Below, in pieces: positions 5,965 to 22,787 of a DNA stretch of 64,000 nucleotides; the stretch's first letter is position 1, and each line of letters begins with the position of its first letter. Source of the DNA: Octopus vulgaris (taxonomy: Eukaryota). The position numbers and the translations under genes were made by a program. The notes beneath the pieces were generated by a model that saw only the letters and a list, made by a program, of their open reading frames with translations, did no database searches and was not told where the DNA came from. The stretch spans positions 5,580,001-5,644,000 of the forward strand of contig OX597823.1 of NCBI GenBank assembly GCA_951406725.2, read 5' to 3'.

Positions 5965-6989
5965 GTGAAATCAAAATCAAAATTGCTGACGTGGCCGATG
6001 ACAGTACTGCCTGATTGGCACTCATTCCAATGGAATATTAACAGCACATCTGAATGAGGGGTGTTACCGGCCCACTTATGGGTATCCCTCATTCATTAGA
6101 CAATGAATTTTGCTTGCGAAGACCTATTGAGGCAATTGTAAACAAATCAAAATCGCTGATGTGGCCGATGACAGCAATTCCTGATTGGCACTCGTGTCAG
6201 TGGAAAGTTAAAAGCACATCCAAGCGTGATCATTGCCAGAGCCACGGATTTGCTCCCATGCCGGTGACACATGAAAAGTACCATTCGAGCATGATCATTG
6301 CCAGCATCGCTTTACTGGCACGTAATAACACCTTTTGAGTGTGGTCATTGCCAGAACCACCTGACTGGTTCTCATACCGGTGGCAGGTAAAATATCCCAC
6401 TACACTCTCAGAGTGGTTGCATTAGGAAGAGCATCCAGCTGTAGAAACTTTGCCAGATCAGATTGAACCTGGTGCAGCCTCTGGTTCACCAGTCCTCAGG
6501 CAAACAGTCCAACCCATGGAAAGCAGACATAAAACGATGATGATATATATATATATATATACACATACATGATAGGCTTCTTTCAGTTTCTTATTTCTTT
6601 ACTGTCCACAAGGGCCCACACTCAGAGTGGACAAACAAGGACAGACAAATGGATTAAGTCAATTATATCGACCCCAGTGCATAACTGGTACTTATTTAAT
6701 TGACCCCAAAAGAATGAAAGGCAAAGTCGACCTCAGTGAAATTTGAACTCAGAATGTAACGGCAGAAGAAATACTGCTAAGCATTTCACCTGGTGTGCTA
6801 ATGATTCTGCCAGCTTGCCTGCTTCTTTCAGTTTCCGTCTACCAAATCCACTCACAAGGCATTGGTCGGCCCGGGGCTATAGTAAAAGACACTTGCCCAA
6901 GGTGTCATGCAGTGGGACTGAACCAGGAATCATGTGGTTGAGAAGCTAGCCACGTTTGTGCCTATTCTTACTGCCCAGCTGGTGTTAGA

Positions 6990-8150
6990 AAACCTACAAT
7001 GCTAGATGTTCTATATATAACAGCCACGTATATTTTCATTACTGGTGACTTCAGCCACCCTGAAATTGAATGGGAAACTTTCCGTTGGTAATAACACTTT
7101 ACCACCACTCCTAGAACTGTTATCAGTGTTGTGACAAAAGAACCTCTAAGTGACTCAATCATGCTATGATCATTGCCAATCTGTTTCTTGTAGGCAGAAA
7201 CAAGAAGCACCACCACCTTCAAACCACTCGCTTTGACTGGAACTGTTACCGTAAGAAGTTACGACACCTAAACTGGTTTGAATTTTACAATCCAGGGGAT
7301 ATCAATACTGTTTTTCAAAATATCTTCAGTGCAATCTGGACTGCATGTGAAGCATCACTACTGTACAAACGCTCTAGAAATAAAAACAATGTAATTTGGG
7401 AGACTGCAGCAGTTCGACTTGCCAGGAAAGATCATTGTGATGCTGAACAGAAATACAGACAGCATAGAACAAATGAGAGCAGAAGATGCAACAGATCATC
7501 TAACCGACTCAAGCAAGCAATGAAAAAGGCAGTGCTTGAGTTTGAACGATATATAGCAACAAGCCCTGAAAATATGTGTGTTCAAAACAGAGTTCTCACT
7601 CTCTAACTGGCCCTATTCACGATCCCCACACAGGTCAGATGACTGATGACGCCAAGGAATGCACTGAGCTTATTGCTGAATGCTATGCTGGCATTTTTAC
7701 TGCTGATAACCCTAACGTATCTTCTTCCCCAACTCTGACATCAAATTCCATAACATCTGTGAAATTCACATCCACAATGCTGTGACACCACCTCAAGAAT
7801 AAGTGCAACTATGCCTCTCCTGATCTTGATGGTGTAACTTATTTTCTTATCAAACGTGGTGGGTTCTTTCTATTGCACCAGCTTTCTTCCTTTTGTCAAT
7901 TCTGCTTTCAATGGCTGCTGTGTGTGACTGGCTTTGAACTGGTTGATCACCCTCCCTATGTTAGTGATTTGGTTCCTGCTGGTTATCATGTTTCCCAACA
8001 TAGAGAAACACTCAGCTGAGCACCAGTATCACTATGATGAGAACATCTTATCTGTTGTTGATGACCATTTTGATCAACAGAAAAGCTTCTTCGCCAGTGT
8101 GACCCCAGCACTGCAACTACTTATGGAAGTGTGTGGACAGTAAGAGGAAC
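6990..8150 (+). mobile_element. Decayed CR1/L2-group LINE ORF2 fragment (APE endonuclease and linker)
   Basis: ITGDFSHPEIEW resembles GDFNxPxIxW; YDHC corresponds to the SDH motif; ASPDLDGV resembles SPGPDGI; many stops and frameshifts. Confidence 0.7.
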
Positions 8151-8492
8151 TGTTAGAAAATGAACTTCATTTGGTCACATTCCATTGAAAGTGTCTAGCT
8201 CAGATTATGAACATTTCAGCCAACCCTCATAATAATAAAAGTTAACATTGAAAAAAATCCACATTTTTCATGAAAAAATTAGGACCTGGGCTTGCACCCC
8301 CTTAGCAAATTTTGTTGCTGGGCCACTGTTGGAATCACACCTAGAACCTTGTGGTCCCAGATTTTACCCACGTCATCAAATAGTAAACTAGTGTTTCAAG
8401 CAAAGAGTTGGCTTTCAACTTGCAAAACATTTCTAAGAATACAACAGAAAAATAAGAACAACAAAATTGTCTTTGAGAAAGTCTCTCAGCTA

Positions 8493-8498
8493 TTTATT
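8493..8498 (-). terminator. Probable calreticulin polyadenylation signal AATAAA (3' UTR about 0.5 kb)
   Basis: AATAAA on the minus strand about 500 nt after the stop, followed about 35 nt later by a U/GU-rich tract (ttttgttgttcttatttttctgttg). Confidence 0.65.
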
Positions 8499-8995
8499 TG
8501 TAAATTTACATATATTACATCCTTTTGTTTTAAATTAAAAAAAATATATATAATAAAAAACAAAAAAGAAAAACAAAGTGACAACAGGACAAAAAACAAC
8601 AAACAGACCATGTCAGTTCATGTCATGCTTGTAAAAACGAAGTACATTTCAAACACAGGCGGTTTTGATGTGCACATGAAAATGTAATTGACAAGATTTT
8701 TCAATAGCTTTGAAGACATTTTAGGTTCCAATCCTGTTGCCATTCTTCCAACAGACCATTGCTGCTGCTGATGCTGCTGCAGGGGAACCCAACATCCTGC
8801 TTAACATCAATATTTTCTCAAACAGATATTTTAACTGTGAGCCACAACTGATGTAGTTTCGGTCATCTTCAAATTAAAAGAGAGTCTTGTCACATGAATG
8901 ATGAATTGACCCATCCCAGCCCATAGAGTCAGCCCAAACCCTCCCCCTCCCAAAGAAACAAGAAAGTTACTGGTTGTGTAACTCAAGAAGCAGCT

Positions 8996-9019
8996 TTACA
9001 ATTCTCCACCGTGGGAATC
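8996..9019 (-). CDS. CALR: Calreticulin terminal coding exon 11 (24 nt): DSHGGEL-stop
   Basis: Strong acceptor gtttttctttttgtttcag, phase 0, GAT TCC CAC GGT GGA GAA TTG TAA, xxEL C-terminus. Confidence 0.88.
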   Translation of the reverse strand, partial: DSHGGEL

Positions 9020-12000
9020 CTGAAACAAAAAGAAAAACAGTTAAGTTTTGTTGAAGCATTTTCTTGACAAATAATTACTTAATTATCTCCCCTGAAGTTA
9101 ATTTTTGTTTTTTTAAGTTTAACATATTGCATTCGATTGCAGCCATACAGAAGCACTTCCTACCAAAAGCTGTGTTGGCAGGAGCTTTTGATAGACCCAC
9201 CCAGGTTGGACAGATCAACTATTAAAGGCCAAACACAAAGCAATCCACTGATCCTGTAAGTTGAGACCGCGAGCACAATGATACAGCCCAGTGCCATAAA
9301 AACTAGTTTTTAAGTGGAAATAGCAAAAAGCTATTTGATACAACTGCTAAGCTATCAAACTCACCAAAATCTGGCCCCTAATCCAGGACTGATGAAGCAG
9401 GAGTAAGTGACTAAATCTACCCCAGTACAACATAAAGAGATTCCACAGATTCATCTCCCAACCCATCGATCAATATGTACAATATCTTGTACTGTTTTGT
9501 TTCCAGCTCTGGTCCTATTCCTGGATATATAGATGACCCCAGGTCAGAATTCAAACCAGGAACTTAAATTTCTGAACTCAAGTGATATCACTTTTGTAGG
9601 AAACTACTAAGCACAGGTTTTTTCCTCTGGATACCAAAGGCTTGGTGAATAAGGAAATCATCCATTTAGGAATAAAAGTTTCTACTTCAAACCTAGTCTA
9701 GGACAACCAGACATCACATACTGGACAATGGAACTGACCAAAAGAACACACACACACACAGGACAGGATACACAAAACTATCTTAAAATCCTTCTCACAA
9801 CTGTAGTTGATAAAATTTATTATCATTAAACTTTTGGAAATCAGTGAAATTGCTCCTGAACCTGAATTATTTTAGATTATATTTAATAATCTTTCTTTAT
9901 CACAATCTCGCAAACAAGGATACTAACATGCACAGATCGCAAGAAAATGAATTTAATTCTAAAACTGGATTAACATGTGCAAACATAGTAAGTCATAAGT
10001 TTCAGTAGAATACAATCAGGACAAAATGTTTGAAATGCACATAACTGGGAAAACTTCACTTAGGCTCAATGCGTGTGTCTCTTTTCTGTGATTATACCTA
10101 TTTCTGATGCTTTGTACATCATATAGTCACCATATATTCACCAAATTCACAAAAGTAAAAAAAAAAAATATATATACCTTTTTGGGTTCTTCTTCCTCTT
10201 CTTCATCATCATCTTCATCTTCGTCTTCCTCCTCATCATCTTTTTTCTTGTCAGCTTCTTCAAAATTAAAGATTAAAAAACAAAAATAAGACATTAACTG
10301 AAGATAAAATTGGAAGAAAACTTCAATGACTCCAGCTGTAAAAAGTGCCCAACCATATTCATTCCTTCAGAAGTCATATCTACAGCTGTCACAGAATTAA
10401 CCCACATGAAACCACAGTTCAATTGTTCAGAGAACAAAAACAAGAGCTAAGCCGCCTTCTGTTTGAGAAAGAATGATTAGCTTCATTTTAAGAACTTCTT
10501 GTTTGTACCAGGGTTTTATTAAGTGAATTTCTCTGGATTCATTTCTATGAGCTTGATGGTGGTTGGTGAGTTGGAATTCAGTGACAACGATTTATACACT
10601 GGATGCCCTTTCAAATGCCAACTACTTTATGGAATGTACTGCGTGCTTTTCATGGTACCAGCACTTATGAGGTACCCGAGTAAATTGCAAGTCAAAAGGA
10701 AAAAAAAAAAAAAAAAAGCTCCTGCAACTGAGTGGGAATGTATTTTGCAATGGGTAGGGACAAGTCTTTATGGTTCAAATTCCTGCAGTACTTAGGACTA
10801 AGAGAGCAACTGAATCACCGAACAGTTTGGCCGAATGAATGCAGCATGGTTCTTAGACGTTACACTCTTTTTGGGTGCAACTCTTCTTGCTGCCATCATC
10901 ATTACTGTTGAGGTGAAAATTAAATAGGTTTCAGATCTGCATCTACCTCACTGAAACATTTGCTAGAGGAAAGAGAAATTGAAAATTGAAAAATAGAAAC
11001 CAACCTTCATCTTTCATTTTCTTTTCTTCTTCTTCTCGGACTTTTCGTTCTTCCTCTTCCTGTTGGTCTTTCATTTTCTTTTCAGGATCCTAAAGTAAAA
11101 AAAGAATAAAAAATTAGGAAATCTATCTACCTAACTCATAGCTACGGGTTTGAACAACTGTCACCACGGCAGTCTTACCAGTCAGTACCAACAGTCTCAA
11201 GTCAATGACATCATTTAACATACACATTTCATTTCTTAAACAAGTTACTATCAAAACCCGTTTACAACAGTCAGATTTCACACCCAAGATGGGGAGTCAC
11301 AAAAACATTGTAAGCTTCTTGTGATATTCATGTTATATAAATAATTTTTGGCAACTGTCGCCAAATAAACATCACCTATCAACACTACCAAATATCAGTA
11401 AATAACTTTGGTAAAAAGAAATCAACATTACCTTAGTTTTTGCCCATGTCTCTTTGGCATGTTCATCTGCATCTGCAACACTGTTACCAACAAATATGTT
11501 ATCAAAGATGGTTCCAGATTTCACCTAATGAAATAAAAAGTTTTTTTAAAATCAAAATGCCAGAATATGTGCCCAATAAAATATTTCACCCATTCATATA
11601 TAGCCTTGGAAGTGACCAATACCTTATCGGTATAAAAACTGTACAGAAGCCAGCTGTGTGTGTGGGGGGGGGGGGGGGTGAAAGAGAGAGAGAGAAGTTA
11701 TGAGTGTATTAAGCAAAGAAATGTCGTCTGCAGGTCTTCAATAACACTAGAATGGTCCAGTGAAAAAAAAAAAAAAAAAACCCAACTTATTTGAAAAACA
11801 AGGCAAGAGGTTTTGGCAACCGAAAGAGAATCAGCAAGCCTCAGCCACCCTACGCCAGCATGGAAATCAACACCAATTTCATGTGTTTGATTTAAATCAA
11901 ACATACCTACATAGTATTCCCATAGTGTATGTGCACACACACAGTTATATGTAAATACATCTATGAAGACACTTGCCCAAGATGTCACTCAGTGGGACTG

Positions 12001-15000
12001 TACTATACTATGAGGTAACGAATGCATCTATTGATGTGATTAACAATTATATGGGTAAACCTGAACACCAAGAGTAATAAAGCAAGAACCTCAGTCCTAT
12101 CAACATGGTTTACAAACCAGCAAATGAACACATGTAGATATGAGAAATACAAACTCAAACATCCATACACACACACACACTCATTATATGACAACCTTTT
12201 TTCAGTTCCCGTCTACCTGAATACATACCAGGCACAAACACAAAAAATGCTGTTGAAAAGGAATGAGCAGTAATTTAGAAAGACTGATAAACCAGTCAAT
12301 CGATACTAAAAAAAAAGTGAACTACATTCCTAAAATCCAACATTGTCCAATTCTCTGACCATGATTTGTACAGGTCATTACAATCAGAGTCAATTCTTAG
12401 AATCATAGCCCTCCAAGACAGGTTGGCAGATACATCTCATTTGGCAAGATTTCTTCAGCTTCGACCTAACAACCAGTCATAAAAAATAGGTTTTACATCA
12501 GAGAATAGTGCATCCTTTCAAAATGATGAATGAAACCACCAATCAGTTCTCTTACCCAAACGTGTCTCACTTTATATTTTAATAGCAAAATATTACCAAT
12601 AATTCATAAACATACCATGCAAGTAACTTGGTGGAAACCATGTGCCCACAGTTGTGTATAATTAACACATATACTTTTAACATAAAAACAACAACAGGTC
12701 TTTACATTTTTACAAGTCCAATGATATCTATAAGAACTATACTATCCTTAAATATGTTTTAGCATGAAGGCCGCGGCCATGCTGGGGCACCACCGCTGGC
12801 AATGGTTTTTTTTTTATACATGGAATTATGATTCCAGCACAATTGTCACATTGGAACTGCTAGTCCCATTAAGATTTGCTTGTTTACCATTGTTATAAGG
12901 CCCAGTCTGATCTGACAGTGTTTCTACAGCTGGATGCCCTTCCTAACGCCAATCACTCCGTGAGTGTAGTGGGTGTTTTTTACGTGCCAGGAGAGGCTGT
13001 CAACGGCCACGATCAGTTGGTGCTTTTTATGTGCTTTTATGTTTAGAAAACCAGGATCACATTCAGTTTAACCAACCATCATCTAATTGACTAGGATTTG
13101 GGAAAGACTTGCTTTCTATTCATGTAACCACATACAAGCACCCTCCTTGACTCATATATATATACATATACACATTACATATATATAGGTACAGATGTGG
13201 CTGTGTAGTAAGAAGCTTGCTTCCCAACCACATGGTTCAAGTTCAGTCCCACTGCATGGCACCCTGGGCAAGTATCTTCTACTACAACTTCAGGCTAACC
13301 AAAGTTGTGAGTGGATTTGGTAGACGGAAACTGAAAGAAGCCTGTCATGTGTGTATGTATGTATGTATTTGTCCCCCCACCATTGCTTGGTAACTAATGT
13401 TAGTGTGTTTATGTCCCCAAAACTTAGTTCAGCAAAAGAGACCGATAGAACAAGTGCTAGGCTTACAAAGAATTAAGTCCTGGGGTCGATTTGTTCAACT
13501 AAAGCAGTGCCTCTAGTATTGCCGCAGTCAAAATGACTTGAAACAAGTAAAAGAATACACTGTTTTGCATACATTTTCCCACACACACCAGCTTGTAAAG
13601 ATGTGCCAAGTGCAAACATTTCTGTACTGAATATTCTTATAGTAAACCACTTGCCTAGTATCTAGGACTTAGTAAACCACTTGCCTAGTATCTAGGACTT
13701 AGTAAACCACTTGCCTAGTATCTAGGACTTAGTAAACCACTTGCCTAGTATCTAGGACTTAGTAAACCACTTGCCTAGTATCTAGGACTTATCAGTCTTG
13801 GTTACGACCCTTTGATCAGTAGACATACATTTATATGGAAGGTCTGAATGTACAGCTACGAGACTGCTCAGTGCAGATATTGTGCCTCACTGTTATCATT
13901 AATTTGTTGTTGACCATAAGTGCTAAAAGATATTTACCTGCCATAAGTCAAAGCCCACAGCACCAATGCTAGTGTATTTGTAGAGATTTGTGTCAGGAGA
14001 ATAGTCTGGGTTATCAATTTCTGGGTGGATCCATTCGCCCTTGTAGTTGGGGTTATCAATCTGCTTGGGTTTCCATTCACCCTGTAAAGAACAATATCAG
14101 TCACCATGTCAATAACTGAAAGGTTACCAGGCAGAAATATTGAAATCTACATTTACAAAATCTGAACTCTGAATTACAACTTACTTTGTAGGCTGGGTTA
14201 TCAATCATTGGGGGTTCCCATTCTCCATCCATATCATCATCCCAATCATCAGGTTTCTTGGCATCAGGGTCAGGAATGTGTTCGGGTTGATCCCAATCTT
14301 CAGGTTTTTTGTCATCAGGGTCATCCATTTTCTCACGATCATCCCAATCTTCTGGTTTCTTTGCACTAGGATCCTAAGTGGAAAAATAAATAAATGCCCT
14401 GATCAGTCAGAGACGCAGCTCGTATTGATATACAAAGTAACAGTGGAAACAGAAGTAGGATTTATATTTTAAAGGTGGTCACCAATGGTGTAAAATTACA
14501 GATTCAAGAAAGGTATTTTAGTCCTAAACATTTCAACATGCTGTCAATCCAGTATTTCAACATCAAGAGGGAACCAGTAGAGAAAATTGATAATATTTCC
14601 CAAGTCAACATAGCAAAAACATCTTAAAGTACCTTTCGAGAGAAATTGAAAGCCTTGTTATATTGTACAGTGTAACATTTGATTAACAAGTTACAAACAT
14701 TCATCTAACATTCAGCAGAAGCACTGAGCAGTCTTTTTAACTGAATCATCCAGGTGTATCGAAACAAATGGATGAAATAACATTCAAAATACTTAAGTAG
14801 TGTGATCCCAACTTCTGGTTGTAGCTATGCACTAAAGCACTTACTCAAAATCTGTACAAAGTCAAACAATCAGAAGGAGCCATAAGGAATTTCTACACAA
14901 TGCTCTAAAACTGATAAACATCTCTTTTCACTAAATCTGGCTGGCTGGGTTTACACATAACATATATAAATAATGGGCAGCAAGCTAGCAGAATTATTGA

Positions 15001-16164: not shown

Positions 16165-19100
16165 CATGACCAACCAGGCAATCAGATGTAGCCACACACC
16201 GCTGGTCATAATGTGCTTCGCATTGTTTTAGCCTTCAAATGACACCAACCCACTGGCTAAGCAAGCAGGCCAACAGAAGAAATAATGAAAGTCATGGCGA
16301 AAGAGTACAGCAAAGATCCCCCCCCCCCCCTGCTGGAGCCTCGTGGAGCTTCAAGTGTTTTTGCTCAATAAACACAACGCCCGGTCTGGAAATCGAAACC
16401 ACAATTCTACGACCGCGAGTCCACTGCCCTAACCATATATATATATATATATATTTATTGTTGCAGTAACTACAAGTGTTTGTGGTATTGCTATTGAAGA
16501 ATTCTAAAACAGAATAACTGTGAAACATGCAACAGATCAACAAGAAGAATAAGTTACCTTGATTTTCTTGGGTGGCAAGAAGTCCCAGTCAGATTCCAAA
16601 TCGCCACTTTCAACTTTCTCGTTATCAATTTTCACTTCATAAGTGTTGTCTGGTTTTACTATCAAGGTGTACAAGTGGGTGTAAACATCATCCTGTAATA
16701 ATTTCAAATGAATTTGATCAGCAATTTCCACAAATGCCAAATAATCAAAATAAAAATCATTTTCTTGACAAATATAAAAATGTTTAAGCTTTGCACCCTC
16801 ACCTTGCATCGGATATCTTTTTTAGTCAACAAGTTCTTTCCTTTGTAGTTGAAGATGACATGTACTTTCTTCGTGCCAGGACCACAGATATCAGGACCTG
16901 GAGATATACAATACATTCGTACAAATTTCTGTCACTAGACCAAGGTAAAGTTGAAGCACCACTATTGATGAATTTCAGCAATAATATTAACCCTAGTAAT
17001 TAGTAATGTGCTCATGTTTATCTTGTTATATTTTTGTTGAAATACGTATTTTTTCAACAAATTTTGAAAATAAGAGTCTATTCAAATTATTCGATGTTTG
17101 AAACAGAAATTAACATGAAATTTTGATGGAAGGTTTAAATATCGTAATTTTTTTATACAATTCCTAATAACATTTAGTTATAAAAATAAGTTGGTTTAAA
17201 AAAAAAACAGTGAATGAGTTTGAGGGTTCCATAGAGCAAAATAGGCACCAATGGCAAAATCATTTGAGAAACACTGCTGTAACTAAGCAGAAGCTCGATT
17301 TATGACCAACATGGACATTTAGGATTTCAAGTTGCAAACTCATCTATGATACAACAATTAATTTTCTTCCGTGATCATTCCTCTGAACACATCTCACACA
17401 CAAGAAAGCCTTCACTCTTCAGTTGCTTAGAATACTATATTACACTTTCACTATAGTGAAGCAAGTTACTAAGAGTCAAATGTCTTAGACATAGATGCTA
17501 TACTGTACAAGTAACAGAAAGAAACCACTACTATTCTTCGCCATCCCCCACCCTCAAATACAACTGAGTTTATTATTTCTATAATAAATACTTTTTTCAA
17601 TGTCTTCAGTTAAGTGAAGCAAGATAATGCTTACGAGATACAAGTACCAAAACTAAAAAGAATTTTTAAAATTTACTATTCTGTGATACAAACATCAATA
17701 TGAACTTGGAGAGTTGGTGAAACTAGAACTTTAACAGCTATAGTTATCCGTGAAGTTCAGAGAATGTGTTAATAAACTATGAAAGCTACTTAAATTTACC
17801 ATCAGTATAAATTACTTCCAGGTCTTGGCACTAAAATGCATAGCTAGTTAGCTGCTGTGTACAATGCTTATGAAGGTCATAAATTTTACCTTTCAGCATT
17901 CAGGTCTAAAGGTGAGCCACAACTTGTTTATAATTCATAGACATGCCTCATGAAAACAGCATAAATGTGGTCAGTTCGCATGGTTGCTGAAGGCTTTCCA
18001 TTACTGCAGAGAGATCTTTGCAGGACTAACCATCAGTTTATTAGATCAGAGATTACTGATTCTTTCACTAATTTTAGTAATTAGACTGGTCATGCTGGGG
18101 CACTACTTGAGTTTTTGTCAAACAAATCAACACCCCTTGTACTTTTTTTTTCTTTATTAAAGCCCAGAACTTCTTGTATCAGTCTCTAAGTGATAGGGAC
18201 TGGTTGTCAAGCACTGGCGTGAGACACACACACACAAGTTTTCTTTCAGTTTCCATCAACCAATTCCACTCACAAAGGCTTTGTTCAGTCAAGCATTAGA
18301 TATTAGCTTTAGTGGGACTGAACTCAGAACCATGTGATTGGGAAATAAACTTCTTACCACACAGCCAGGCCTGCACCTGTTTATAGTTTTAACTACCATT
18401 AGTATAAATAACCGCATCACCTTAACAGGCCAGTTCGAATCATTTGTAACACACACACACACGTAGAATAAATAGAGTTTGTATTCACCGAACATAATGA
18501 GGTATGGAGAATCGCCATGGAGATTTTTCTGATCAATATCATCACTGTACAATTTGATGTAGCCACCACCACAGTCAATATTCTGTTCATGTTTCACTGT
18601 AAACTGGAGAACAAGTGGTTCATTTTCATTGCTGAATTTATCAAAATTAGCTGAAATTCCATAGAATTTAGCATCTTGTGATGTTTTCAAGCCTGTAAAG
18701 AGAGGATTTAGAAAAACAAATTACTATGACAGCATGGGCGAAATATGGATATACTGTATATGGAGTGAGGAACTTCTTATTGAGCAGCATACCTTTGTCT
18801 TTGACAGCATCACCATAAAATTTTCCTGCTGATATTTCAAATTTTCCTTGATCACTGCCTTTGTATATTGAGTCGACCCATTTTGATCGCCAAGAATCAT
18901 CTGAAATAGAAAAGTAAGTGTTATTGTAACTTTAAAAAAAATCCTTTTCCAGAAAAAAAAAAAGGGGGGGGGGGGCTGTCTTCAAGATTACCATAAGAAA
19001 TGAAAACGAAATAGCGCCACTAGTACAATCTAGAACCTTTAAAACAAGCTTTCTAGAATTGTCGTTAGGAACTAATAGCTATCACTTTTGATTCATCAAT

Positions 19101-22100: not shown

Positions 22101-22787
22101 AGGCGTTTATGGACATTTTCAAATTATATTTGATGAAACAATGCAAACAACTTTTAGCTTATTTCATTTTTAAAAACAAATTAATCAAAGTGTCAATAAA
22201 ACTGCTAATCCGTGGAACCGAATCCTGCTACAGACTGCAAAGAGGTTTCGATTCCAGGTCAAAGCCATTTTGCTACAGACTAAATAAAATCTCCAATAAA
22301 AAGAACTGGATTGAGCACATTTTTTTTTTCACATTCTAAGCTCCTCTCAATACAACTGAGGGTGTAATTAATGAAAACAAAATCAACGTATGGATTTTTT
22401 ATTTAAAATATTTTCTGTGTGTTTTTCATTTCCGTTTTTTTTTTTCTCAACAAGAAAAGCAATATCTGTTTCCAAAATCACCAGCTTCTAATTGAGATTT
22501 TTAATTTAAATTGTTTTATTCTCATTCAACGAAGTCGGATATCTGAAACTGCAGTAAAAATAAGGGAACAATATTGACACAAGCAATATTGTCCGTCGTC
22601 CCCAATTAATTAAAAATAATGTGATGATGGTAACAACGATGCCAAGTTGTTGATGATGAAGAGGGATTTAAAAAAAAAAAGAGAAAGTTTGTTACTCACC
22701 AATGAAATCTTCTTTGAAATACACTTTCGCATTAGAAAGAGCAACTAAAACTAAGAAAAGCCCTCCGGATAGCGTAAGGCGCTCCAT
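8996..22787 (-). CDS. CALR: Calreticulin, complete spliced CDS (11 coding exons, 1245 nt, 414 aa)
   Basis: Exons joined by hand: 22787-22700, 18900-18793, 18692-18489, 16897-16803, 16692-16558, 14373-14185, 14081-13938, 11524-11432, 11089-11005, 10257-10178, 9019-8996. All introns are GT-AG with consistent phases. Signal peptide [20 protein letters not shown], family motifs [14 protein letters not shown] and IMFGPDICG, P-domain repeats KPEDWD and [26 protein letters not shown], acidic C-domain, no transmembrane segment (so not calnexin). Confidence 0.97.
10178..10257 (-). CDS. CALR: Calreticulin exon 10 (80 nt, or 77 nt from the distal AG): (E)[26 protein letters not shown]
   Basis: T-rich tract, tandem AAG-AAG acceptor, donor AAG|gtatat, acidic Ca-binding tail in the correct phase. 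Confidence 0.9.
11005..11089 (-). CDS. CALR: Calreticulin exon 9 (85 nt): [28 protein letters not shown]
   Basis: Acceptor ttttactttag, weak donor GAAG|gttggt, EKKMKD motif of the C-domain. Confidence 0.92.
11432..11524 (-). CDS. CALR: Calreticulin exon 8 (93 nt): [31 protein letters not shown]
   Basis: Acceptor tttcattag, donor AAG|gtaatg. Confidence 0.97.
13641..13790. repeat. Perfect 30-bp minisatellite x5 in calreticulin intron 7
   Basis: agtaaaccacttgcctagtatctaggactt repeated five times without mismatch. Confidence 0.98.
13938..14081 (-). CDS. CALR: Calreticulin exon 7 (144 nt): [25 protein letters not shown]...GFDLWQ
   Basis: Acceptor tctttacag, donor CAG|gtaaat, type-2 P repeats. 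Confidence 0.98.
14185..14373 (-). CDS. CALR: Calreticulin exon 6 (189 nt), P-domain: [15 protein letters not shown]...[14 protein letters not shown]
   Basis: Acceptor ttttccacttag, donor AAA|gtaagt, type-1 P repeats. Confidence 0.98.
15163..16120 (+). mobile_element. Penelope-like element (PLE) remnant: RT C-terminal half to 3' end, antisense in calreticulin intron 5
   Basis: RDDALA (YRDD catalytic motif), [48 protein letters not shown] (PLE IIWFNPPxSxNVKT motif), SELV near the end; CTGACGA at 16059-16065 followed by (TA)n. Confidence 0.85.
16558..16692 (-). CDS. CALR: Calreticulin exon 5 (135 nt): [20 protein letters not shown]...[11 protein letters not shown]
   Basis: Acceptor attacag, donor AAG|gtaact. 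Confidence 0.98.
16803..16897 (-). CDS. CALR: Calreticulin exon 4 (95 nt): (G)[31 protein letters not shown]
   Basis: Acceptor atctccag, donor AAG|gtgagg. Confidence 0.98.
18489..18692 (-). CDS. CALR: Calreticulin exon 3 (204 nt): (G)[10 protein letters not shown]...[14 protein letters not shown]...PYLIMF
   Basis: Acceptor ctttacag, donor G|gtgaat, calreticulin signature motif. Confidence 0.98.
18793..18900 (-). CDS. CALR: Calreticulin exon 2 (108 nt): (D)[35 protein letters not shown]
   Basis: Acceptor tctatttcag, donor G|gtatgc, AGKFYGD motif. Confidence 0.96.
22700..22787 (-). CDS. CALR: Calreticulin coding exon 1 (88 nt): [29 protein letters not shown]
   Basis: ATG at 22787, hydrophobic signal peptide, VYFKEDF motif, donor G|gtgagt, phase 1. 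Confidence 0.95.

What the first reader, a model, noticed from the sequence alone, without database searches (positions are those of the whole stretch)
8996..9019. Calreticulin ends in HGGEL, not KDEL/HDEL
Seen: the last exon encodes DSHGGEL-stop, and I found no alternative HDEL/KDEL exon in intron 10 or the 3' UTR. Established: calreticulins are retrieved by the KDEL receptor through K/H/RDEL-like tetrapeptides; xxEL is the core, but G at both -4 and -3 is atypical. A-to-I editing cannot restore D because it only makes A-to-G changes. The lectin residues (GGGYIK, YLIMFGPD, DLW) are intact. Inference: either weaker ER retrieval with more secreted or surface calreticulin, or a co-evolved cephalopod KDEL receptor that reads His at -5.
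Basis: partly seen in the sequence, partly recalled or inferred. Interest (0 to 1): 0.7.

Follow-up and report, generated by a model that had tools for sequence, protein, structure and literature searches.

The report
Octopus calreticulin's unusual HGGEL return tag
Octopus and cuttlefish calreticulin, a protein-folding helper, ends in HGGEL instead of the usual HDEL/KDEL address tag, and because this ending is strictly kept and also appears on folding enzymes of unrelated animals, it likely still works as a tag that returns the protein to the endoplasmic reticulum.

Summary
Confirmed. The window holds the only calreticulin gene found in this genome (11 exons, minus strand, 414 aa, identical to Octopus vulgaris CAI9728618). 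Exon 11 (9019-8996) encodes DSHGGEL-stop. Spliced transcript contigs join it upstream; no base difference is listed there. HGGEL ends 14 of 14 coleoid-clade calreticulins and 0 of 99 others. It looks like mollusc H-D-E-L with Asp replaced by Gly-Gly. The same HGGEL ends two hydrozoan-like disulfide isomerases of independent origin, and octopus HYOU1 ends in DGEL. Six of 11 octopus ER-protein tails lack the acidic -3 residue; all keep Glu-Leu/Phe. The single KDEL receptor keeps all 15 pocket and gatekeeper residues checked. Its coleoid-specific H111S change lies at a loop position that varies among distant receptors. Best reading (0.6, untested): HGGEL is a working non-canonical retrieval signal, probably weaker than HDEL, with His at -5 replacing the -4 residue. 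Against: human receptors reject ADEL/DDEL, and a PGEL reporter went mostly to the Golgi. No support was found for secretion. Not found in the literature searched. A new variant of a known signal; moderate interest.

The parts
8999..9013 (-). Codons for the C-terminal pentapeptide His-Gly-Gly-Glu-Leu
   Evidence: invariant in 14 of 14 coleoid rows
8996..9019 (-). Coding part of exon 11: DSHGGEL and TAA stop
8467..8995 (-). 3' UTR; AATAAA at 8498-8493; poly(A) begins near 8467
   Evidence: signal; loose T runs before 8467 in X12 and X7
9020..10177 (-). Intron 10 (1158 nt, GT-AG); no alternative xxEL exon found
   Evidence: only low-depth unspliced contigs
10178..10257 (-). Exon 10, acidic C-domain
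   Evidence: loose end of X12
11005..11089 (-). Exon 9, charged C-domain
11432..11524 (-). Exon 8
13938..14081 (-). Exon 7, end of P-domain and DLW motif
14185..14373 (-). Exon 6, P-domain repeats
16558..16692 (-). Exon 5
16803..16897 (-). Exon 4 (PDICG)
18489..18692 (-). Exon 3, lectin-site motifs CGGGYIK and YLIMF
18793..18900 (-). Exon 2
22700..22787 (-). Coding part of exon 1: start codon and hydrophobic signal-peptide-like N-terminus
   Evidence: signal peptide judged by eye, no predictor run

Best explanation
[quoted passage not shown] Shown: the tail, its conservation, its recurrence on other ER proteins, and an unchanged receptor pocket. Inferred: (1) it arose before the octopus/cuttlefish split by replacement of Asp in HDEL with Gly-Gly; (2) Glu-2, Leu-1 and the free carboxylate would bind R5/W166 and R47/Y48/R159/Y162 as in the solved structures; (3) losing both the -4 positive and the -3 negative charge leaves the net charge at -2, as in KDEL, so the tail may pass the D50/E117 charge screen that rejects ADEL (-3) and DDEL (-4); (4) the flexible Gly-Gly would let His-5 reach W120/E117 in place of the -4 residue. 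Affinity is probably below HDEL, with the acidic C-domain and partner binding adding to ER residence.
For: HGGEL in 14 of 14 coleoid-clade calreticulins (FastTree support 0.99; 5 named species, 9 unnamed rows). Positions -6 to -11 vary, and only 11 of the 34 preceding tail columns are invariant among 13 of these rows. Decapodiform EPDHGGEL matches EPDHDEL of Haliotis, Lottia and Solemya. HGGEL also ends two PDIs (P0300, P0314), 83% identical to Hydractinia PDI and 55-56% to octopus PDI; grouping them with coleoid PDIs is rejected with tails trimmed (p-AU 1.9e-44). xGEL ends 14 of 95 PDI-type hits and 4 of 99 non-coleoid calreticulins; all 32 GEL tails carry His at -4 to -6, from about four independent lineages. 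In this genome all 11 ER-protein tails read keep E-2 and L/F-1, and 6 of 11 lack an acidic -3. The receptor keeps all 15 key residues checked. PMC2140024: -3 tolerates every residue but Pro when Lys is at -4. PMC8276033: -3 Asp binds weakly in simulations, and tails without K-4/D-3 are still handled by KDELR2. PMC8248988: proofreading depends on net charge; my charge sums are.
Against: No binding or localisation data for HGGEL exist in what I saw. PMC8248988 states a requirement for acidic residues at -2 and -3, shows that human receptors with D50/S54/E117 (as in octopus) reject ADEL and DDEL, and says -5 only modulates. PMC2140024 does not name Gly among efficient -4 residues in its text (figure not visible). 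Its PGEL reporter was mostly Golgi, although SUMF2 itself stays in the ER with or without the motif. PGEL has the same -2 net charge as GGEL, so charge alone is not enough. The convergent PDIs are unnamed and placed only by tree.
Confidence: 0.6

Rival explanations
1. HGGEL is a deliberately weak signal, selected so that part of the calreticulin leaks to the cell surface or into secretions.
For: Gly at -4 is not among efficient residues and the PGEL reporter was mostly Golgi. Calreticulin is listed in the O. vulgaris ink proteome. Strict conservation fits a tuned weak signal as well as a normal one.
Against: In that proteome calreticulin is 'Not Found' in file F1 and found in F2 and F3, like PDI; BiP spectra are in F2, and ribosomal and metabolic proteins abound. 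F1-F3 are taken to be the syringe and two milked samples. It is the only calreticulin found, so ER quality control depends on it. The same tail on PDIs is not explained.
Confidence: 0.15
2. The tail hardly binds the receptor. Calreticulin stays in the ER through its acidic, calcium-binding C-domain and through partners, and the tail is a tolerated remnant.
For: 18 of 21 human ER proteins, including CRT3 and SUMF2, stayed in the ER after motif deletion (PMC2140024). The acidic domain is normal: 34 D/E in the last 60 residues against 31-36 in other molluscs.
Against: A remnant should drift, yet H-G-G-E-L is invariant while neighbouring residues vary, and the same five residues arose again on PDIs.
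Confidence: 0.13
3. HGGEL works only with a co-evolved coleoid receptor; H111S in the luminal TM4-TM5 loop widens the entrance for Gly-rich or non-acidic tails.
For: Position 111 is Ser in 12 of 12 coleoid rows and His in 119 of 119 other close hits. This loop is flagged as near the selectivity residues. Coleoid PDI also lacks Asp-3 in 9 of 9 rows (HVEL, HSEL, HIEL).
Against: Among 119 of 150 alignable distant representatives the position is His in only 44 (Tyr 33, Ser 3). The pocket is unchanged. HVEL and HGGEL occur in other lineages, whose receptors I could not pair. Shared ancestry alone explains the co-occurrence.
Confidence: 0.11
4. Assembly error or wrong terminal exon.
For: One annotated isoform (P0122, 400 aa) reads into intron 9 and has no EL tail; low-depth unspliced contigs exist.
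Against: Spliced contigs from four studies, no listed base difference in the exon, and the same tail in five named species.
Confidence: 0.01

Closest known systems
Metazoan calreticulin (PF00262; human PDB 8tzo_C)
   Same: Signal-peptide-like N-terminus, lectin motifs with the Cys pair, P-domain repeats, acidic C-domain; E 7.6e-191 over residues 12-411.
   Different: Ends in HGGEL. Of 99 non-coleoid rows, 89 end in xxEL: HDEL 49, KDEL 24, RDEL 6, HGEL 4, HEEL 2, HQEL, HTEL, KTEL, KEEL 1 each; none GGEL.
KDEL/HDEL/RDEL retrieval signals (PROSITE pattern [KRHQSA]-[DENQ]-E-L as quoted in PMC2140024)
   Same: Free C-terminal Glu-Leu on a luminal ER chaperone; His nearby; net charge -2 like KDEL.
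   Different: Gly at -4 and -3, so it fails the pattern; His sits at -5.
PGEL of human SUMF2/pFGE (PMC2140024 Table I)
   Same: Natural xGEL tail without a basic -4 residue on an ER-resident protein.
   Different: No His at -5 was tested. The PGEL reporter was mostly Golgi and SUMF2 did not need the motif. A separate paper reporting PGEL as an efficient signal is recalled only; it was not held.
ADEL/DDEL signals of S. pombe and K. lactis (PMC8248988)
   Same: Lineage-specific signal without a basic -4 residue.
   Different: Those receptors change positions 50, 54 and 117; the octopus receptor keeps D50, S54 and E117, and its BiP ends in KDEL.

Membership tests
Calreticulin | Calreticulin-family lectin domain | tested here: met
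   PF00262 E 2.8e-83; best PDB hits are calreticulins
Calreticulin | Lectin-site motifs and Cys pair (their role is recalled) | tested here: met
   CGGGYIK, YLIMFGPDIC and DLW align with the human chain
Calreticulin | P-domain repeats and acidic C-domain | tested here: met
   34 D/E in the last 60 residues
Calreticulin | Soluble, distinct from calnexin | tested here: met
   No hydrophobic stretch after the N-terminus by eye; the only other PF00262 locus (C13) matches calnexin best
Calreticulin | C-terminal ER-retrieval signal | tested here: inconclusive
   xxEL end present but non-canonical; function untested
Canonical KDEL-type motif | Glu at -2 and Leu at -1 at the free C-terminus | tested here: met
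Canonical KDEL-type motif | D/E/N/Q at -3 | tested here: not met
   Gly in 14 of 14 coleoid rows
Canonical KDEL-type motif | K/R/H (or Q/S/A) at -4 | tested here: not met
   Gly in 14 of 14; His is at -5
Canonical KDEL-type motif | pH-dependent binding to the KDEL receptor and retrieval of a reporter | not testable with these tools
Switched-specificity receptor (ADEL/DDEL type) | Changes at receptor positions 50, 54 and 117 | tested here: not met
   D50 and S54 in 11 of 12 coleoid rows (one row lacks the region), E117 in 12 of 12

The most novel reading that the evidence does not exclude
HxGEL is an unrecognised, repeatedly evolved class of ER-retrieval signal read in a shifted register: a Gly linker lets an upstream His act as the passkey. 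Coleoid cephalopods moved several major ER chaperones (calreticulin HGGEL, HYOU1 DGEL, GRP94 HSDEL, PDI HxEL) to a relaxed code, possibly helped by the receptor loop change H111S.
Probability: 0.25. Interest if true: 0.62.

Novelty: new variant of a known kind. Interest (0 to 1): 0.4.

Why it matters
The structural model of the KDEL receptor rests on three carboxylates and a basic or His residue at -4. A core chaperone that has kept a tail lacking two of these features across octopuses and cuttlefish, opposite a receptor with human-type gatekeepers, is a cheap natural test of that model and of the disputed role of position -5. If it works, motif patterns miss a class of ER residents (xGEL tails) in invertebrates and would mislabel them as secreted. 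If it does not, coleoids either keep calreticulin in the ER without the receptor or release some of it.

Tried and rejected
Assembly error, alternative last exon and A-to-I rescue: rejected. A second, canonical calreticulin: none found; the other family locus is calnexin-like, though these searches score only the best candidates. Receptor duplication or pocket change: one locus, pocket unchanged. I did not locate receptor exon 1 in the genome myself; R5 and H12 come from the annotated P0252, whose exons 2 and 3 match the genome. H111S looked striking against close hits but weakened against distant representatives. Complex prediction of receptor plus tail was not available, so there is no structural model. 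No run holder is on record as RNA. Ink proteome as evidence for secretion: uninformative. Glucosidase II beta search rang nowhere; the UGGT tail was not found in 40 kb. No named Nautilus or vampire squid calreticulin was among the hits, so the origin cannot be dated more closely. Literature: 'HGGEL' gave 15 papers, none relevant by title; two or more of HGEL/GGEL/KGEL/DGEL/KDEL gave 6 unrelated papers; calreticulin or KDEL with cephalopod terms listed nothing on this tail (top listings only). Subscription papers are not searched. The supplement of PMC2140024 (values for single Gly variants) could not be read and bears on how weak Gly-4 is. Earlier scan findings: none. Four long window ORFs had no Pfam match.

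Full report
Observation. The minus strand carries an 11-exon calreticulin gene from 22787 to 8996. All ten introns are GT-AG and the product is 414 aa. It is identical to P0001, named calreticulin-like of Octopus vulgaris (CAI9728618.1). Exon 11 codes D-S-H-G-G-E-L-stop. No other phase-0 exon ending in xxEL lies between 10178 and 3000. Contigs of six transcript-like runs and one DNA-like run were laid on the region. Four of the six join exons 8, 9, a masked 78-letter piece and exon 11 in one contig; a fifth shows the exon 10 end as a loose end at the exon 11 acceptor. Poly(A) starts near 8467, about 30 nt after AATAAA. One search lists no difference within 8996-9019; one search shows none but its list was cut. 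A-to-G editing cannot give DEL or EEL. A transcript ORF in the supplement of PMC10142993 also ends in this tail.

Copy number. The P-domain search found one match in the genome. The family search found this locus and one on C13, which matches calnexin best. No canonical second calreticulin was found.

Conservation. Of 134 calreticulin-like proteins fetched, 113 went into a tree; 19 fragments under 355 aa, one garbled bird entry and one intron-read-through isoform were left out. Fourteen rows form a clade (support 0.99) with O. vulgaris, O. sinensis, O. bimaculoides, Argonauta hians, Sepia pharaonis and nine unnamed rows. All 14 end in HGGEL. Of the other 99, 89 end in xxEL (HDEL 49, KDEL 24, RDEL 6, HGEL 4, HEEL 2, four singles) and none in GGEL; 10 have no EL end. 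In the coleoid rows the last five residues are invariant while -6 to -11 vary. Decapodiform EPDHGGEL lines up with EPDHDEL in abalone, limpet and Solemya, so the change is best read as Asp replaced by Gly-Gly, pushing the old His to -5 (inference). It predates the octopus/cuttlefish split; no nautilus sequence was available.

Convergence. Among 95 of 120 hits that passed a PDI-type filter, 14 end in xGEL, two of them in HGGEL. These two are 83% identical to Hydractinia PDI and 55-56% to octopus PDI. An AU test on 31 rows with tails removed rejects joining them to coleoid PDIs (p 1.9e-44; the group was named after a first tree was seen). The other 12 xGEL PDIs group beside Anisakis. All 32 GEL tails in both sets have His at -4 to -6, but they stem from about four lineages, not 32 events.

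Other ER proteins of this genome. I read terminal exons directly from the genome: BiP KDEL, GRP94 HHSDEL, HYOU1 HRNDGEL, P4HB HSEL, PDIA3 KKEL, PDIA4 HIEL, PDIA6 KSEL, ERp44 RDEL, ERdj5 HDEF, a CNPY protein NEEL. Only P4HB is matched to an annotated protein; the other names and last exons are my reading from family hits and recalled features. With calreticulin, 11 of 11 keep Glu-2 and Leu/Phe-1, and 6 of 11 lack an acidic -3. Coleoid P4HB lacks Asp-3 in 9 of 9 rows, whereas named other molluscs mostly have KDEL or RDEL. For the remaining proteins I have no mollusc baseline.

Receptor. One KDEL receptor locus was found. The O. vulgaris protein keeps R5, H12, R47, Y48, D50, S54, E117, W120, E127, Y158, R159, Y162, W166, R169 and D177 (numbering by alignment to chicken KDELR2). 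The one luminal coleoid-specific change noted is H111S (12 of 12 against His in 119 of 119 close hits). Among distant representatives this position is His in only 44 of 119 alignable rows of 150, so it is weak evidence for co-evolution.

Mechanism. PMC8248988 (abstract, sections 5, 6, 9, 11 and passages) places Leu-1 and the carboxylate on R47/Y48/R159/Y162, Glu-2 on R5/W166, Asp-3 on R169 and the -4 residue on E117/W120, with a net-charge screen that rejects ADEL and DDEL. PMC2140024 (abstract, parts 1-4 of 7) found -3 tolerant of all residues but Pro, -4 best as K/R/H/N/F/W/Y, and a PGEL reporter mostly in the Golgi. PMC8276033 (abstract, Results) found Asp-3 weakly bound and divergent tails still handled by KDELR2. 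PMC7617889 and PMC7561476 were seen as passages only; neither PMC7617889 nor PMC8248988 mentions H111. From this I infer that the Glu-Leu core binds normally, that GGEL keeps the -2 net charge of KDEL, and that Gly-Gly lets His-5 take the W120/E117 site. This is untested. The human-receptor data against uncharged -4 residues, and the poor PGEL reporter, are the main reasons for doubt.

Secretion. PMC10142993 (passages and supplement rows) lists calreticulin in ink, but not in file F1, and with PDI, BiP, ribosomal and metabolic proteins. This fits tissue disruption by milking. The syringe sample gave the fewest proteins, so it neither supports nor excludes secretion.

Verdict. A real, conserved, apparently unreported variant of the KDEL-type signal on an otherwise ordinary calreticulin. 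It fails the canonical motif at -4 and -3 but most likely works like it (0.6). Rivals: tuned leak (0.15), receptor-independent retention (0.13), receptor co-evolution required (0.11), artefact (0.01). Interest 0.4: surprising to a specialist in ER retrieval and directly testable, but narrow.

Noticed in passing
L051:9706-9797 (G000:C20 near 34,759,700, + strand): The HYOU1/GRP170-like gene ends in HRNDGEL, a second xGEL tail in this genome, with Asp at -4. Its last three codons and stop are the same letters as in calreticulin.
   Followed up: partly
L007:3078-3101 (G000:C1 near 48,155,090, - strand): The GRP94-like gene ends in a tiny exon VSHHSDEL: Ser at -4 with His at -5 and -6.
   Followed up: partly
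L003:1357-1404 (KDEL receptor, - strand): The frame runs on past the last donor into a 16-residue alternative tail ending ILSV. A decapodiform-type transcript (P0132) has a similar tail, and oyster, abalone and snail 'X1' isoforms end in LLDV, IDIV, IEVV or INIV. Possibly a conserved mollusc receptor isoform with a PDZ-like end in place of the lysine-bearing tail.
   Followed up: partly
L003 (KDEL receptor exon 2, residue 111): His111 of animal KDEL receptors is Ser in 12 of 12 coleoid rows.
   Followed up: yes
window 10258-11004 (intron 9): An annotated 400-aa isoform (P0122) reads into intron 9 and lacks any EL tail; only low-depth unspliced contigs cover this intron.
   Followed up: partly
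window 8483: Contigs of four runs carry a 9-base insertion in the 3' UTR relative to the assembly.
   Followed up: no
window 13640-13790 (intron 7): About five head-to-tail copies of a 30-base unit.
   Followed up: no
window 6160-7020: A very high-copy repeat: contig depth in the millions in the DNA-like run X16.
   Followed up: no
G000:C18:43,283,000-43,364,000 and C25: Eight tandem intronless HSP70 genes (one with an internal stop) on C18, and two cytosolic-type HSP90 loci on C25.
   Followed up: no
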